64,000 nt of DNA from a virus: the IMG/VR virus record IMGVR_UViG_3300021420_000022, positions 28,393 to 92,392 of that record. The stretch is one strand, 5' to 3'. The notes below the pieces were generated by a model, which saw nothing but the letters and a program-made list of their open reading frames with translations, was not told the origin of the DNA and searched no databases. Both the position numbers and the translations under genes were made by a program. Shown here piece by piece: positions 43,930 to 61,524 of this stretch (position 1 is its first letter; each line of letters opens with the position of its first letter).

Positions 43930-45093
43930 ATGTTTAAAAAGGTAAAACCTGTACAGTTGGAGTGGAGCAGCATCCTTGAGCAATTTCCGCACTGTGATCC
44001 GCGTATCTTGCATGCGCCGAGCGAGTGCAAATACTGCGACATGCATCTGGATTGGCAAGCTCTGCGGCAAGCGTGGGGAATTGCTTTCACGAATTACGAA
44101 CCTGAGGGAAATGAACTTCCCTGCCCAGCAAATCATGCTCGTGGGGAGAAAGGTGATTTTTGGCAGGGAAATGTTGCGAAGCCCAATAATTCTTTTGAAT
44201 TTGATATACCCGCTAACGCAACAATCACTGGTGTATCAGTCTCTGCAACAGTAAATCCGACAGAATTCGCAAATCCCGCGCTTGACGCAATCACGACGCA
44301 GCCGGTCGTGCTGCCGAATCCGGAGCCGTCCACGATTCTGCCATGTATCCAGAAGGATGCCCACCCACCGTTAACTGTTAGTCCTGAAACAGTACAGGAG
44401 CTACTAACAACGGAATTGAAATGCTTTCATAAATCTTCGAATGATCTGACTCCGGCCCAGATTTCCGCACAGGCCGCACTTACCGCAGTCAAACCAGCGG
44501 CTCTTGCGAGCGCCGCAAACGAAGCGTTTGTTGATATGGCCGCCCTCGCTGCAACGTTGCCGCCAGAGCATCCGTTAAACGCTATCGTGCCGCCGCCAGC
44601 TGAAGCACCAAAGAAACGCGCACGTAAGCCAAGTGAAGCTCAACAAACGGCGGGTAGCTCAATGGTAGAGCACTCGGTCGATAACCGAGAGGTTGCAGGT
44701 TCGATGCCTGCCCCGCCGACCACTTCTGTGTCGCCGAGCGCCGTCATTCCGGAAAGTCAGCCATCGACGACACTGCCTGCGCAGCCTGTTGAGCCGCCAA
44801 AAGTCGAGAAGTTGTTGAACCCGGAGCAAGAGAAAGAGATAAAGGAACGACTGGCGAAGTACCGCAATGAGATTCTGCCAACCGGGGGGATGGTCCCAGT
44901 TGATCAGGTTGGCGGCGTCGAAATTCAGCTTCGCAAATACGTCGCGCAGTTCTGTCCGGCCAAGCCGAGCAGCAAAACATGGGGATACGATGACTGGAAG
45001 AACTTCGTAGGCTTCTTTGACAACATGGTTGCGACAGTTGGCGCTGCTGGACTCGTGCAGCATATTCAACGGAAGATTGGGATAGCAAAATAA
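43930..45093 (+). CDS. Hypothetical protein: Cys/His N-domain, Pro/Ala linker, C-domain
   Basis: GGAGG SD; FPHCD.RILHAP..C.YCD; stop coupled to the helicase start (TAATG). Confidence 0.7.
   Translation: MFKKVKPVQLEWSSILEQFPHCDPRILHAPSECKYCDMHLDWQALRQAWGIAFTNYEPEGNELPCPANHARGEKGDFWQGNVAKPNNSFEFDIPANATITGVSVSATVNPTEFANPALDAITTQPVVLPNPEPSTILPCIQKDAHPPLTVSPETVQELLTTELKCFHKSSNDLTPAQISAQAALTAVKPAALASAANEAFVDMAALAATLPPEHPLNAIVPPPAEAPKKRARKPSEAQQTAGSSMVEHSVDNREVAGSMPAPPTTSVSPSAVIPESQPSTTLPAQPVEPPKVEKLLNPEQEKEIKERLAKYRNEILPTGGMVPVDQVGGVEIQLRKYVAQFCPAKPSSKTWGYDDWKNFVGFFDNMVATVGAAGLVQHIQRKIGIAK
44648..44722 (+). tRNA. tRNA-Ile(GAU) embedded in a CDS
   Basis: Acceptor CGGCGGG/CCCGCCG + ACCA; D-arm GCTC/GAGC; anticodon stem CTCGG/CCGAG with loop TCGATAA; T-arm GCAGG-TTCGATG-CCTGC. 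Confidence 0.85.
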
Positions 45094-56242: not shown

Positions 56243-56605
56243 ATGCACGGAAAGCTTTATTATGACCAGCGCAAATCACTCGGCTTATGCCCACGATGCG
56301 GAAATTCAGTTGACGGTCGAGTGATTTGCCTTCCGTGTCTTGCAAAGCAAAAGTTGTCTAAGTTAGACCTATCACCCGAGGAAACCGAAAAAGCGAGAAC
56401 CTCCTTTCTGAATTTTGACGGAACATGTCAATGCTGCGGTTCGAGTGATCCCGGTGGAAAGAAGGGTTGGTGTATTGACCACGATCACATTCGAAGAGTT
56501 TTTCGAGGAATCATATGCCAACACTGTAACATAATGCTAGGTCGGGCTCACGATCAAATTGAATGGCTCTTCGCGGGCATCAAATATTTGAGAAAATTTT
56601 TATGA
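56243..56605 (+). CDS. Endonuclease VII-family (HNH) protein
   Basis: CQCCG...IDHDH....RGIIC..CN.MLG..D; stop overlaps the tmRNA acceptor piece. Confidence 0.85.
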   Translation: MHGKLYYDQRKSLGLCPRCGNSVDGRVICLPCLAKQKLSKLDLSPEETEKARTSFLNFDGTCQCCGSSDPGGKKGWCIDHDHIRRVFRGIICQHCNIMLGRAHDQIEWLFAGIKYLRKFL

Positions 56606-56935
56606 GTTACGCACGTCAATGTCTCATGGTCACTCACGCGGACGCGGGTTCGATCCCCGCTAGGTCCACCAATCCTATCACGGCCTTGTTAATTCACATG
56701 GCCGAGATAACTTCTGCGGGCCTAAATTGGTTTCGACGGGTGAGATTGATGGTGGGAAGCTCGTGCCGTAAGTGGACACTGTCGATATCAGTGTACCAAA
56801 CTAAAAATGCCATGCGAATGCTGGCGAAGGCTGTAAGCTTTGTGAAGTCGCTGTTCACCATGCCGAATTTTGGTATGGAAGCAGCCGCTTCCATGGCCTA
56901 GAGCCGGGAGGGGCTGTCCGAAAGATGGCCCCTTC
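56602..56935 (+). ncRNA. ssrA: Circularly permuted (two-piece) tmRNA
   Basis: Acceptor piece ends GGAC-GCGGG-TTCGATC-CCCGC-TAGGTCC-ACCA (56671); 46-nt intervening segment; coding piece starts GGGCCTA-AATTGGTTTCGAC (56718); G3-U70 pair; tag ORF 56809-56901; 3' hairpin. Confidence 0.9.
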
Positions 56936-56958
56936 ACTTTCAAAAATAGGAGACGACA

Positions 56959-57339
56959 ATGGCAGTGAAAAAGAAGGGCAAGAAAAAGAGCAGGAAATCA
57001 CCGAAGAAAGTAACAGGAGAGAAAATGATCAAGCTGACTGACAAGAACGGCGAGGCACTCAACCTGCTCGCGACTCGGGCGTCTGATGAATCGCATTACG
57101 CTACGCGGAGTGCGATCCGTAAGGCCCTGGACGAAACCGTAGAGTACAACGGCGGCGGATATTCTCAGATTACCCGCGAGCCGCTTGTCGAACTTCAGAT
57201 CCGACGAAATGACCGCGACGATGTCACCTACACTGAGTCGCTGACGGTCGGCGTCATATTCAAGCGCGGGATTCTTCAGTTCGGCTGCCACACTTTCAAC
57301 CGGGCGACCTCGAAGCAGATCGTTCAATGGGCGCGATGA
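56959..57339 (+). CDS. Hypothetical protein between the two tag cassettes
   Basis: AGGAG SD; Lys-rich N-terminus. Confidence 0.65.
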   Translation: MAVKKKGKKKSRKSPKKVTGEKMIKLTDKNGEALNLLATRASDESHYATRSAIRKALDETVEYNGGGYSQITREPLVELQIRRNDRDDVTYTESLTVGVIFKRGILQFGCHTFNRATSKQIVQWAR

Positions 57340-57419
57340 TCGGCAAGACACAGGAAGACATCATTCGCGTTCGGGAATTGCTGGGACCGGTCAACGATCT
57401 TGTGCCGGACTCGGTAATT

Positions 57420-57607
57420 ATTGATGGTGGGAAGCTCGTGCCGAGAATGGACACCTCGTATAAAAGCGTACCAAACCACAAAAGCCAAGTCTATTCTGGC
57501 TAAGGTGGCTAGCTTCTTGAAGTCGCTGGTTCCTGCTCTCCCGAGCATGGACTTCGCGCCTCAGGCGGCCTAGTCGCTGGGTGGGGTCGCCCGAAAGGTG
57601 GCCCCAC
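57420..57607 (+). ncRNA. Second tmRNA mRNA-like cassette (pairing segment, PK1-like element, tag ORF, hairpin), no tRNA-like 5' strand
   Basis: 24-nt identity to 56745-56768; tag ORF 57484-57573 AKSILAKVASFLKSLVPALPSMDFAPQAA; homologous CGAAA-loop hairpin. Confidence 0.8.
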
Positions 57608-57629
57608 TTATTTCAAAAAGGAGAACTAG

Positions 57630-57857
57630 ATGAGCGCAAAAGTTATGGGGTCGACGCCACGCGAACATGTTACGCCGAGAGAAATGCGATGCGGTCAGAT
57701 CGGAACGTTCAGATATGACGGTCAACAAATTCTCGCGCTACGGACTTTCTCCGAGATCGTTGATCTGAACGATGCCGCGTCAACATGGGGCCTTGACGCG
57801 TCCTATGATATCGAGTTGCTTCCGGCGGGGACCAAAATCGAAGTTGAGGCCGAGTAG
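57630..57857 (+). CDS. Hypothetical protein
   Basis: AAGGAG SD. Confidence 0.65.
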   Translation: MSAKVMGSTPREHVTPREMRCGQIGTFRYDGQQILALRTFSEIVDLNDAASTWGLDASYDIELLPAGTKIEVEAE

Positions 57858-60618: not shown

Positions 60619-61524
60619 ATGCAAATAACTTTCGCCGATCAGAGCGTCGAGTACATCCGGCAGCTTCGGACAAGCCGCAATCCGGCCAGCCCGAACACCC
60701 TGAAGCGCTACCAGAGCTACCTAGACGCCCGTTTGGTTCCCCAGATCGGTTCTAGGCAGCTTTCCGAGCTGACTGGGGCCGCCTGCAAGGCGTTTTTCGA
60801 CCCGATAGCCGATAAACTCAGCGCGTCCTCCCTGAACGGTATCTATAACGTTCTTATAGGGGTTATCGACTCCGCCGTGGACGCCAACGGCAACCAACTC
60901 TACCCCCGACTCTGGAAAAAGTCGTTTTTGGACCTCCCTGAGCTGGTTCCAGGCGAGCAAAACACCCCTGAGATACCCCAAAAAACGCTAACGGAGGCGA
61001 TTCTAGGGGGGTCTCCTGAGGATAAGCGCCTGTGGGCCTTCCTCGCAGGCTCCGGCCTCAGGATCGCGGAATGCTTGGCAGTACGGACCACGCCAGACGG
61101 ACTCGGTAACTACTGGGATCGAGCTGCCGCGACCGTTACGGTCGAGGTTCAGCGCGATCTACGGGACCCCGACGCGCATCGGACGACAAAGACCGCCGCA
61201 GGGCGTCGCATCGTCGACCTGCCCCGCGACCTGAACGCGTTCCTCATTCGGACGACTCCGGAGGGAGCGTTTCTGTTCACCAGCAAGTACGACGGCCTCT
61301 ACAAACGTCTCAAGAAGGCGATACCTGACGCCGGGTTTCACTCTTTCCGCCGTTTTCGGCTGACCCAGATCGCTGCCAAGAATGCGCCGATCACTTTGGA
61401 GCACTTCTGGTCCGGGCACGCGGCGGACGGCGTTCACGAGCGTTACGCCAAGTGGGCCACGAAGAACGAAGAGCGCCGTGAGTGGGCCGACAAGATTGGT
61501 CTCGGATTCGAGCTGCCGCAATGA
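60619..61524 (+). CDS. Tyrosine recombinase/integrase
   Basis: GLRIAE (R), KT.AG.R (K), FHSFRR (HxxR), SGH, RY (Tyr). Confidence 0.9.
   Translation: MQITFADQSVEYIRQLRTSRNPASPNTLKRYQSYLDARLVPQIGSRQLSELTGAACKAFFDPIADKLSASSLNGIYNVLIGVIDSAVDANGNQLYPRLWKKSFLDLPELVPGEQNTPEIPQKTLTEAILGGSPEDKRLWAFLAGSGLRIAECLAVRTTPDGLGNYWDRAAATVTVEVQRDLRDPDAHRTTKTAAGRRIVDLPRDLNAFLIRTTPEGAFLFTSKYDGLYKRLKKAIPDAGFHSFRRFRLTQIAAKNAPITLEHFWSGHAADGVHERYAKWATKNEERREWADKIGLGFELPQ

What the first reader, a model, noticed from the sequence alone, without database searches (positions are those of the whole stretch)
56809..56901. Unusually long tmRNA tags resembling amphipathic membrane-targeting helices
Seen: tag 1 is AMRMLAKAVSFVKSLFTMPNFGMEAAASMA (30 aa) and tag 2 (57484-57573) is AKSILAKVASFLKSLVPALPSMDFAPQAA (29 aa), assuming GCC is the resume codon. 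Typical tags are about 10 aa with a polar, acidic N-half. Here the conserved half is a cationic amphipathic helix like the MinD membrane-targeting sequence (E. coli GFLKRLF), followed by a Pro linker and an Ala-rich end. Only tag 2 ends in the ClpX-type AA; tag 1 ends SMA. Inference: the tags may send rescued chains to the membrane (FtsH degradation, sequestration or toxicity), and the two cassettes may specify different fates.
Basis: partly seen in the sequence, partly recalled or inferred. Interest (0 to 1): 0.8.

Follow-up and report, generated by a model that had tools for sequence, protein, structure and literature searches.

The report
Phage tmRNA tags with amphipathic helix
A soil-type phage carries its own "back-to-front" ribosome-rescue RNA (tmRNA) whose peptide tag is three times the usual length and starts with a conserved, positively charged amphipathic helix, so proteins rescued during infection probably meet a different fate from host-tagged ones; the second "tag cassette" nearby is a displaced gene fragment, not a second tmRNA.

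Summary
Observation confirmed. 56809-56901 is the tag frame of a real phage-encoded, circularly permuted (two-piece) tmRNA (gene about 56602-56937; Rfam RF04321, 66.7 bits). Three things support GCC 56809 as the resume codon. The Rfam alignment places it there. An 11-nt spacer follows PK1, with A at -4, in all six DNA copies. The peptide is conserved from codon 1.

A profile search found 15 metagenomic ORFs that read through related tmRNA genes. That gives 19 distinct tags of 26-33 residues. All have a cationic amphipathic helix at residues 1-16 (net +2/+3, hydrophobic moment about 0.4-0.6), usually then Pro, a variable spacer, and an Ala-rich end (mostly MAA). The family was found only on phage or metagenome DNA.

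Membrane targeting is plausible but untested. A protease or adaptor signal fits equally well.

The idea of two cassettes with two fates is not supported. Cassette 2 has no acceptor 5' strand, D-loop or P2a. It is the original 3' part of the gene, displaced by a 675-bp insertion flanked by a 24-nt direct repeat. In three syntenic relatives one intact tmRNA is followed directly by the gene that follows cassette 2 here.

Phage two-piece tmRNAs are known. Earlier notes of this scan also describe long, conserved phage tags on other DNA. This is a new variant of a known kind.

The parts
56602..56671 (+). Acceptor piece of the permuted tmRNA. It holds the return strands of P2c (56611-15), P2b (56624-27) and P2a (56634-40), the T-arm (56644-60), the acceptor 3' strand (56661-67) and ACCA (56668-71).
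   Evidence: Rfam RF04321 alignment. Helix-by-helix pair table with compensatory changes in L126.
56672..56717 (+). Intervening sequence between the CCA end and the 5' end of the coding piece. It is removed in mature two-piece tmRNAs.
   Evidence: It is the unaligned insert in the Rfam alignment. Its length and sequence vary among relatives.
56718..56808 (+). 5' part of the coding piece. It holds the acceptor 5' strand with G3.U70 (56718-24), the D-loop (56725-36), the P2a/b/c forward strands (56737-66), the PK1 hairpin/pseudoknot (56767-97) and the 11-nt A-rich spacer (56798-56808).
   Evidence: The PK1 hairpin folds at -10.6 kcal/mol (z -2.35) and shows an A-U to G-C compensatory change in L007.
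56809..56901 (+). Tag 1 reading frame: resume codon GCC, 30 codons, stop TAG.
   Evidence: The closest tags elsewhere are P0012 (67% identical) and P0014 (63%).
56907..56935 (+). P5-type terminal hairpin of the coding piece (12 bp).
   Evidence: Fold at -21.7 kcal/mol, z -2.4. Compensatory changes in L007, L126 and cassette 2.
56745..56768 (+). Left copy of the 24-nt exact direct repeat (P2b/P2c forward strand). It is the left limit of the homology between the two cassettes.
56959..57339 (+). Cargo ORF of the 675-bp insertion (126 aa). The probable true start is at 57022. It is absent from the syntenic relatives L007, L123 and L124.
   Evidence: No Pfam or PHROG match.
57420..57443 (+). Right copy of the 24-nt direct repeat and start of cassette 2.
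   Evidence: It pairs 9 of 9 with the acceptor arm at P2b/P2c, but the sequence upstream gives only 2 of 6 pairs at P2a.
57444..57483 (+). Cassette 2 PK1 (stems CGAG/CUCG and GGAC/GUaCC) plus the 11-nt spacer. This is the majority PK1 type in complete relatives.
   Evidence: The same type is in the intact tmRNAs of L123 and L124.
57484..57573 (+). Tag 2 reading frame (29 codons plus stop) in a displaced gene fragment that has no tRNA-like domain.
   Evidence: The closest tags are P0013 (70% identical) and P0002 (68%).
57578..57610 (+). Cassette 2 P5-type hairpin (14 bp).
   Evidence: Fold at -24.9 kcal/mol, z -3.3.
57630..57857 (+). 75-aa gene that follows the tmRNA hairpin directly in L007, L123 and L124. 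It marks cassette 2 as the original gene end.
56243..56605 (+). Endonuclease VII/HNH-type gene that abuts the tmRNA gene. It is absent from L007 and L124.
   Evidence: Pfam PF02945 at 56.5 bits and PHROG endonuclease VII. Synteny.

Best explanation
56809-56901 is the tag template of a functional-looking, phage-encoded two-piece tmRNA.

How it should work, by analogy with known tmRNAs (inferred):
1. The transcript is cut into an acceptor piece and a coding piece, held together by helix P2.
2. Host AlaRS charges the piece (G3.U70 is present).
3. Host SmpB and EF-Tu deliver it to stalled ribosomes. No SmpB gene is in the phage record.
4. Translation resumes at GCC 56809 and adds 30 residues.

The tag belongs to a family seen only in phages and metagenomes (19 distinct tags). 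It has two parts. The first is a 16-residue cationic amphipathic helix kept under peptide-level selection. The second, after a Pro or break and a variable spacer, is an Ala-rich hydrophobic C-terminus of the degron type.

My reading is that the C-terminal part keeps the usual protease signal and the helix adds a second instruction that changes where or by what the tagged chain is handled. My rough odds for that instruction are:
- peripheral membrane binding, which would favour FtsH or sequestration: about 0.3;
- a recognition surface for a protease or adaptor such as Lon or an SspB-like factor: about 0.3;
- something else: the remainder.

Cassette 2 (57420-57610) is not a second tmRNA. It is the original 3' part of the gene. 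It was pushed aside when a 675-bp segment inserted by recombination in the 24-nt P2 strand. That segment brought a replacement 3' part of another tag subtype plus a small cargo gene.

Shown here: the RNA anatomy, the reading frame, the family, the amphipathicity and the insertion. Inferred: processing, charging, translation and the fate of tagged proteins.
For: tmRNA identity:
- RF04321 scores 66.7 bits here, 79.5 bits in L007's record and 91.9 bits in L126's record.
- The acceptor stem has an invariant G3.U70. The T-stem, P2b, acceptor stem and P5 show compensatory changes.

Resume codon:
- The Rfam alignment places it on GCC 56809.
- An 11-nt spacer follows PK1, with A at -4, in all six copies. 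This matches the E. coli rule in PMC2481249.
- ARAGORN independently calls the homologous tags in L007, L123 and L124.

Peptide-level selection:
- Variable columns in codons 1-16 fall 8/6/12 by codon position.
- Cassette 2 against L124 has 5 synonymous and 1 non-synonymous codon change.
- Replacements are conservative (I/M, L/M, F/W, S/G), whereas the upstream pseudo-frame changes radically.

Family: 15 metagenomic read-through ORFs match with E-values from 1e-27 to 1e-6.

Helix:
- Net charge of residues 1-16 is +2 or +3.
- The best 14-residue hydrophobic moment is 0.38-0.63.
- Hydrophobic residues sit at positions 4, 5, 8, 11, 12, 15 and 16, and Lys at 2, 7 and 13.
- The periodicity peaks at 100 degrees.
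- AlphaFold2 predicts a helix at residues 2-17/18 with pLDDT about 76-89 over the first 20 residues.

Contrast set: 47 other phage permuted-tmRNA tags have a median of 13 aa and median net charge -2, and none has a moment above 0.42.

Cassette 2 as a displaced fragment:
- There is no homology to the tRNA-like domain upstream of 57420.
- L007, L123 and L124 each have one intact tmRNA followed directly by the 75-aa gene.
- The two tags are 43% identical to each other but 67-70% identical to tags elsewhere.
Against: - No expression, processing or tagging data exist.
- The host is unknown, and no SmpB was found in a record estimated 72% complete.
- Family members were found through a protein search, which can only return copies that are open in this frame. 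The constancy of frame is therefore partly a selection effect.
- Only six DNA copies were available for the codon test, so its numbers are small.
- The helix lies 13-17 residues from the C-terminus, unlike MinD-type anchors.
- Tag 1 has Met in place of the near-invariant Lys2 and ends SMA. It may be a weaker or altered version.
- Cassette 2 is fully intact (PK1, frame, stop, hairpin, 24 of 24 identity in P2). This fits a recent event but also some retained role.
- The insertion carries no recombinase, so its mechanism is open.
Confidence: 0.75

Rival explanations
1. The helix is a membrane-targeting sequence. Tagged chains bind the inner face of the cytoplasmic membrane and are handed to FtsH, sequestered, or perturb the membrane.
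For: - The family has high moment, high hydrophobicity and +2/+3 charge in all 19 members.
- The HeliQuest-type discriminant (formula recalled from memory) exceeds 0.68 in 19 of 19 members and 1.34 in 11 of 19.
- The motif G/S-F-L/V-K-S-L resembles the E. coli MinD sequence KGFLKRLFGG, which tethers fusion proteins to the membrane (PMC5471200).
Against: - Amphipathic helices of this kind also serve as protein-protein interfaces.
- The helix is not at the extreme C-terminus.
- There are no localisation data and the host is unknown.
Confidence: 0.3
2. The helix is a recognition element for a soluble protease or adaptor (Lon-type hydrophobic degron, ClpA, or an SspB-like adaptor, host or phage). 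The long tag is simply a stronger or re-addressed degradation tag.
For: - The C-terminus is degron-like in most members: MAA in 8, VAA, QAA and LAA in 5.
- From textbook knowledge, the N-half of the E. coli tag binds SspB, and the long Mycoplasma tag is read by Lon.
- Conserved polar positions (N/S at 3, S/G at 10 and 14) suggest a specific surface.
Against: - No partner was identified.
- No protease or adaptor gene was seen next to the locus.
- The cationic character is not needed for known Lon or ClpX signals.
Confidence: 0.3
3. Both cassettes are used, giving a switchable system. Recombination between the 24-nt repeats could excise the 675-bp segment and restore a tag-2 tmRNA. Alternatively, on a long transcript the acceptor arm could pair with the P2b/P2c strand of cassette 2.
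For: - The repeat is 24 of 24 identical.
- Cassette 2 pairs 9 of 9 with the arm at P2b/P2c.
- Its PK1 type, frame, stop and hairpin are intact and match those of working relatives.
- Earlier scan notes report tRNA-domain-less coding halves in other phages. I did not check them.
Against: - Cassette 2 has no acceptor 5' strand, D-loop or P2a.
- The arrangement is unique among the five related DNA loci.
- Intactness is expected after a recent insertion.
Confidence: 0.12
4. The true tag is short. Translation resumes far downstream, and the N-terminal half is conserved only as RNA.
For: The last 6-9 residues alone look like an ordinary tag end.
Against: - The 11-nt spacer and A at -4 fix GCC/GCG at the proposed site in all copies.
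- There is an excess of synonymous and third-position changes in codons 1-16.
- No conserved helix was found or sought within the first 16 codons. I did not fold the tag-coding stretch itself.
Confidence: 0.05
5. The frames are ordinary small-protein genes (about 50 aa, starting at ATG 56749 / 57424) and not tmRNA tags.
For: - The frame is open from 56563 to 56901.
- ATG/GTG/TTG codons lie at the start of the shared 24-mer.
- Gene callers deposited such ORFs.
Against: - No Shine-Dalgarno sequence lies upstream.
- The upstream part is constrained as RNA helices with compensatory changes and radical 'amino-acid' changes.
- ORF starts differ widely among relatives.
Confidence: 0.03

Closest known systems
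Phage-encoded two-piece (circularly permuted) tmRNAs, e.g. OM43 phage Melnitz and pelagimyophages (PMC9004378)
   Same: A complete permuted ssrA lies on a lytic-type phage genome with no phage SmpB. The gene order is acceptor piece, intervening sequence, coding piece. It passes the same Rfam model, RF04321.
   Different: Those are marine, alphaproteobacterial-type genes, and the paper does not discuss tag content. This one is closest to the beta-type model but falls below its threshold. It has a minimal coding piece (PK1 plus one terminal hairpin) and a private cationic amphipathic tag family.
Betaproteobacterial two-piece tmRNA (Rfam RF01850)
   Same: Overall layout, including a single terminal hairpin after the tag, and the same upstream context of the resume codon (UAAAUGCC-like).
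   Different: It scores 46.3 bits against a gathering score of 84. The tag is about three times longer and basic rather than acidic. No bacterial genome among 185,579 species representatives carries this P2 strand or tag.
E. coli SsrA tag (ANDENYALAA encoded part; PMC2481249) and its ClpXP/SspB/FtsH handling
   Same: It is added by trans-translation from a resume codon 11 nt after PK1 with A at -4. Most family members have an Ala-rich hydrophobic C-terminus.
   Different: The tags are 26-33 residues against 10. The N-half is cationic and helical rather than polar and acidic. Tag 1 ends SMA, not AA.
MinD-type C-terminal membrane-targeting sequence (E. coli KGFLKRLFGG; PMC5471200)
   Same: A short cationic amphipathic helix that shares a five-residue pattern (G-F-L-K-x-L) with family members.
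   Different: This is an analogy only. It is not at the extreme C-terminus, is about 16 residues long and has no shown membrane binding.
Genomic islands integrated in tmRNA genes, with a regenerated target and a displaced fragment (Islander, PMC4383910; PMC12595487)
   Same: The insert is flanked by a direct repeat inside the gene. The insert supplies a new 3' part that restores the gene, and the old 3' part is left at the far end.
   Different: The target is a phage's own permuted tmRNA. The insert is only 675 bp and has no integrase, and the restored part changes the tag subtype.

Membership tests
tmRNA, permuted two-piece form (Rfam RF04321) | Covariance-model score at or above the curated threshold | tested here: met
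   66.7 bits against a gathering score of 47. Relatives score 79.5 and 91.9 bits.
tmRNA, permuted two-piece form (Rfam RF04321) | tRNA-like domain: T-arm, 7-bp acceptor stem with G3.U70, encoded CCA, in permuted order (3' half upstream of 5' half) | tested here: met
   Pair table. G3.U70 is invariant in five genes, the acceptor stem co-varies in L126, and ACCA lies at 56668-71.
tmRNA, permuted two-piece form (Rfam RF04321) | Helix P2 joining the acceptor piece and the coding piece | tested here: met
   P2a, P2b and P2c are paired in all five genes, with compensatory changes in P2b of L126.
tmRNA, permuted two-piece form (Rfam RF04321) | PK1, a short A-rich spacer with A at -4, a resume codon, an open tag frame and a stop near a hairpin | tested here: met
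   An 11-nt spacer and A at -4 in six of six copies. The rule comes from PMC2481249. The P5 hairpin was folded.
tmRNA, permuted two-piece form (Rfam RF04321) | Works with SmpB; processed into two pieces; charged with Ala | not testable with these tools
   No SmpB (PF01668) in the 92-kb record, estimated 72% complete. It is presumably supplied by the host.
tmRNA, permuted two-piece form: cassette 2 as an independent member | Own acceptor 5' strand, D-loop and P2a | tested here: not met
   Nothing alignable to the tRNA-like domain lies upstream of 57420. P2a gives 2 of 6 pairs. Rfam finds no tmRNA match there even at E up to 10.
Betaproteobacterial tmRNA (Rfam RF01850) | Score at or above the gathering threshold | tested here: not met
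   46.3 bits against 84.
ClpX-type SsrA degron | C-terminal Ala-Ala with a hydrophobic residue before it | tested here: inconclusive
   Tag 1 ends SMA (not met). Tag 2 ends QAA (AA only). In the family, 13 of 19 tags end in AA, 8 of them MAA. Recognition by a protease cannot be tested here.
MinD/FtsA-type membrane-targeting amphipathic helix | Cationic amphipathic helix able to lie in the membrane interface | tested here: inconclusive
   Moment, charge, periodicity and the predicted helix fit. Lipid binding was not tested.
MinD/FtsA-type membrane-targeting amphipathic helix | Position at the extreme C-terminus of the protein | tested here: not met
   The helix is followed by 10-17 further tag residues.
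Island integrated in a tmRNA gene (Islander-type) | Direct repeat, a regenerated gene and a displaced fragment bracketing the insert | tested here: met
   24-nt exact repeat at 56745-68 and 57420-43, with a restored gene on the left and a fragment on the right.
Island integrated in a tmRNA gene (Islander-type) | Tyrosine integrase inside the element | tested here: not met
   The 675-bp insert holds only ORF 56959-57339 and a short ORF. An integrase-like ORF lies outside it at 60619-61524.

The most novel reading that the evidence does not exclude
Phages of this lineage use a private tmRNA to give every chain released from a stalled ribosome a membrane-seeking helix. Trans-translation products are then re-routed to the membrane (FtsH or sequestration) instead of the host's cytosolic ClpXP route. 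The tag module itself is exchangeable, because whole 3' gene parts can be swapped by insertion at the conserved P2 strand, as caught in this genome.
Probability: 0.22. Interest if true: 0.8.

Novelty: new variant of a known kind. Interest (0 to 1): 0.55.

Why it matters
tmRNA tags are normally treated as short degradation signals. Here a conserved, phage-only tag family has a second, helical module. That argues that phages reprogram what happens to rescued proteins, not only whether ribosomes are rescued. It also gives a concrete peptide of about 16 residues to test for membrane binding or protease addressing.

The split gene shows that a tag can be replaced as a unit.

On the practical side, read-throughs of these tmRNA genes sit in protein databases as 'hypothetical proteins'. 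At least one isolated phage (Tunturi_3) has an unannotated permuted tmRNA.

Tried and rejected
Searches for relatives that found little or nothing:
- blastn of the locus against GenBank phages: no match.
- An exact 20-mer and the ORF126 protein in IMG/VR: nothing.
- Tag and tRNA-like-domain DNA patterns in IMG/VR: only L007.
- A generalised P2 pattern: only L007 and L126.
- Protein-pattern and P2-pattern scans of 185,579 species genomes: nothing. I therefore found no host-type ssrA and no prophage copy, and I dropped the idea that cassette 2 is an attP for a host ssrA.

I could not inspect the contigs of P0003-P0015, including the 45.3-kb contig that holds both P0021 and the ORF126 homologue P0023.
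- 'relatives' is not available for virus records.

Other dead ends:
- Host inference failed. TerL and DNA polymerase hit only distant phages of many hosts. The Tunturi_3 (Acidobacteria phage) link is weak.
- A PDB sequence search with a tag gave nothing.
- A full-text search of the papers held here for tmRNA with 'amphipathic helix' and 'tag' found no description of such tags.
- The supplement of the 2025 tmRNA database paper held none of these tag motifs, but only 13.7 kb of text is held.

Ideas rejected:
- Cassette 2 has a decayed PK1. Its MFE fold is weak, but the same PK1 type is the majority in intact relatives and forms a pseudoknot with compensatory changes.
- The two cassettes arose by in-situ duplication and divergence. 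Each tag has closer relatives elsewhere than its neighbour.

Caveats on numbers:
- The HeliQuest-type discriminant formula is also from memory.

Full report
**Origin of the window.** The window is part of a 92.4-kb IMG/VR virus record, estimated 72% complete. It has a terminase, a family-A DNA polymerase, a helicase, a T5 A1-like protein and a lysozyme. It is therefore phage DNA.

**Observation.**
- window:56809-56898:+ gives the 30-residue tag 1, with stop at 56899-56901.
- window:57484-57570:+ gives the 29-residue tag 2, with stop at 57571-57573.
- Rfam RF04321 (tmRNA_permuted) matches 56611-56812 at 66.7 bits (threshold 47). Its alignment places the consensus resume codon on GCC 56809.
- The older beta-type model RF01850 spans the gene but scores 46.3 bits against a threshold of 84.
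- ARAGORN finds the gene but picks a spurious tag inside the next ORF.

**Anatomy of the RNA.**
- The acceptor piece (56602-56671) carries the return strands of P2, the T-arm, the acceptor 3' strand and ACCA.
- A 46-nt intervening sequence follows.
- The coding piece starts at 56718 with the acceptor 5' strand (G3.U70), the D-loop and the forward strands of P2a/b/c.
- Next come a PK1 element, an 11-nt A-rich spacer, the tag frame and one 12-bp terminal hairpin (56907-56935).
- There are no further pseudoknots.

I aligned this gene with four related genes (L007, L123, L124, L126). Every helix is kept, and the acceptor stem, T-stem, P2b, PK1 and P5 show compensatory changes.

**Resume codon.** Four lines agree.
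1. The Rfam alignment places it on GCC 56809.
2. All six copies (two here, four elsewhere) have exactly 11 nt between PK1 and the GCC/GCG codon, with A at -4. In E. coli the same 11-nt spacer exists, and A86, four nucleotides before the resume codon, sets the frame (PMC2481249).
3. ARAGORN independently calls the homologous long tags in L007, L123 and L124.
4. The peptide is conserved from its first residue. Variable columns in codons 1-16 fall 8/6/12 by codon position. Cassette 2 differs from L124 by 5 synonymous and 1 non-synonymous codon.

**The tag family.** The whole gene happens to be open in the tag frame, so gene callers have deposited read-through 'proteins'. A profile of three such 50-residue stretches, searched against 1.84 billion representatives, returned 15 credible hits with E-values from 1e-27 to 1e-6. 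Together with the loci, this gives 19 distinct tags of 26-33 residues.
- Position 1 is always Ala.
- Lys dominates positions 2, 7 and 13.
- Hydrophobic residues occupy positions 4, 5, 8, 11, 12, 15 and 16.
- Small polar residues occupy positions 3, 10 and 14.
- Pro is at position 17 in 10 of 19 tags.
- A variable stretch with Phe follows.
- The ends are MAA (8), SLA (3), VAA (2), QAA (2), and LAA, ELA, MEA and SMA (1 each).
- Tag 1 is of a minority subtype, closest to P0012 and P0014 at 63-67% identity. P0012's ORF also contains the tRNA-like-domain read-through.
- Tag 2 is of the majority subtype, 66-70% identical to P0013, P0002 and P0006.

**Where the family occurs.** DNA-level relatives were found only in IMG/VR and soil-type metagenome contigs. 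None appeared among 185,579 species genomes or by blastn in GenBank phages.

**Amphipathic helix.**
- Residues 1-16 carry net +2 or +3 in every member.
- The best 14-residue hydrophobic moment (Fauchere-Pliska scale) is 0.38-0.63.
- For the two window tags and L007, the moment of residues 1-16 is reached by 0.4-1.3% of shuffles.
- The family's mean hydrophobicity profile peaks at 100 degrees per residue.
- Single-sequence AlphaFold2 predicts a helix at residues 2-17/18 with pLDDT about 76-89 over the first 20 residues. Confidence is low for the rest.

**Comparison with other tags.**
- 47 other distinct tags from phage permuted tmRNAs in IMG/VR have a median length of 13 and a median net charge of -2.
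- Twelve of those are 20 residues or longer, but none has a moment above 0.42.
- So long tags are not rare in phage two-piece tmRNAs. The cationic amphipathic type is particular to this family.
- The most frequent tag length overall is 10 (PMC11915505).
- The motif shared with the E. coli MinD membrane-targeting sequence (KGFLKRLFGG; PMC5471200) is a resemblance, not homology.

**Cassette 2.** Homology between the two cassettes starts sharply at a 24-nt exact repeat (56745-68 and 57420-43), which is the forward strand of P2b/P2c. It runs through PK1, the tag and the hairpin to the ribosome-binding site of the next gene.
- Upstream of 57420 there is no acceptor 5' strand, D-loop or P2a. Only 2 of 6 P2a pairs are possible.
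- Rfam finds no tmRNA match there even at E up to 10.
- Its PK1 looked weak in an MFE fold. However, it is the majority type in intact relatives and forms a two-stem pseudoknot with compensatory changes in L126.

**Synteny settles its origin.** In L007, L123 and L124 a single intact tmRNA is followed directly by the homologue of the 75-aa gene 57630-57857. The same 202-aa gene lies upstream in L007 and L124. The window differs in two ways.
- An endonuclease VII/HNH gene (56243-56605) lies just before the tmRNA.
- A 675-bp segment lies between the repeats. It holds the tag-1 3' part, its hairpin, ORF 56959-57339 and a short ORF.

This is the pattern left by a single-crossover insertion into a tRNA or tmRNA gene: a regenerated gene, an insert and a displaced fragment (compare PMC4383910 and PMC12595487). 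Here, though, it happened in a phage's own gene and the insert has no integrase. ORF126 has one homologue, P0023 (71% identical). Its longest-contig length (45,301 bp) equals that listed for P0021, an HNH ORF that reads into a related tmRNA, so both may lie on one 45.3-kb contig. I could not fetch that contig.

**Mechanism.**
- Shown: a complete, covarying two-piece tmRNA; the reading frame; peptide-level conservation; the amphipathic design; and the insertion history.
- Inferred from established tmRNA biology: processing into two pieces, charging by AlaRS, delivery by host SmpB (none is in the record), and addition of the 30 residues to stalled nascent chains.
- Open: the role of the helix.
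- Unlikely (about 0.12): both cassettes are used. This would need excision between the repeats or alternative P2 pairing on a long transcript.

**Novelty.** Phage-encoded two-piece tmRNAs are published (PMC9004378; PMC11915505 lists 79 unique phage sequences). A full-text search of the papers held here for tmRNA with 'amphipathic helix' and 'tag' found no description of tags of this kind. Earlier notes of this scan describe several other phage tmRNAs with long conserved tags, some with helices, and tRNA-domain-less coding halves in Salmonella phages. Those are unchecked notes on other DNA. They suggest that private long tags are a general phage habit, which lowers the surprise of this single case but raises the interest of the class. 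I class this as a new variant of a known kind.

**Limits.**
- The host is unknown. The best terminase hit is Tunturiibacter phage Tunturi_3 at 21.7% identity.
- The codon-level test rests on six copies.
- Family members were retrieved through their open frame, which biases towards intact frames.

Noticed in passing
L131 / PP885686.1 88172-88396 (- strand): The isolated Acidobacteria phage Tunturiibacter phage Tunturi_3 has a permuted tmRNA (RF04321, 63.3 bits) in a stretch with no annotated feature. Its tag frame ends in a motif (VAQFA.M.AA) close to that of family member P0015. Its terminase is the best GenBank-phage hit by E-value (5e-18) of the window's terminase.
   Followed up: partly
window 56243-56605: An endonuclease VII/HNH-type gene abuts the 5' end of the tmRNA gene and is absent from the syntenic relatives. 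In another metagenomic relative (P0021) an HNH ORF also runs straight into the tmRNA. This suggests homing-endonuclease traffic at this locus.
   Followed up: partly
window 56563-56901; proteins P0001-P0015: The whole tmRNA gene is open in the tag frame, so gene callers have deposited 42-263-aa 'hypothetical proteins' that are read-throughs of tmRNA genes. This annotation artefact is also a handy way to find tag families.
   Followed up: yes
window 56579-57132: ARAGORN detects the permuted tmRNA but reports a wrong, acidic 29-residue tag taken from another frame of the downstream ORF.
   Followed up: yes
window 57403-57470: The Rfam GP20-b motif (RF03003) gives a weak match (21.8 bits, threshold 36.2, E 0.068) on the PK1 hairpin and A-rich stretch of cassette 2. 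It may be chance, or a hint that this phage motif is related to tmRNA coding pieces.
   Followed up: no
loci L003-L121 (IMG/VR): A generic pattern for permuted tmRNAs hit more than 119 viral contigs. Of 47 other distinct ARAGORN-called tags, 12 are 20-33 residues long, and several recur in many contigs.
   Followed up: partly
window 56959-57339: The cargo ORF of the insertion probably starts at 57022 (AGGAGA lies 6 nt upstream, and the homologue P0023 starts there). The Lys-rich 21-residue leader before it resembles the start of a different small gene in L007 (6371 onward).
   Followed up: no
window 60619-61524: A tyrosine-integrase-like ORF (PHROG integrase, E 2e-24) lies 3 kb downstream of the split tmRNA gene in an otherwise lytic-looking genome.
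   Followed up: no
window 44648-44722: tRNA-Ile(GAU) (Rfam 68 bits) lies inside the long ORF 43930-45093 on the same strand.
   Followed up: no
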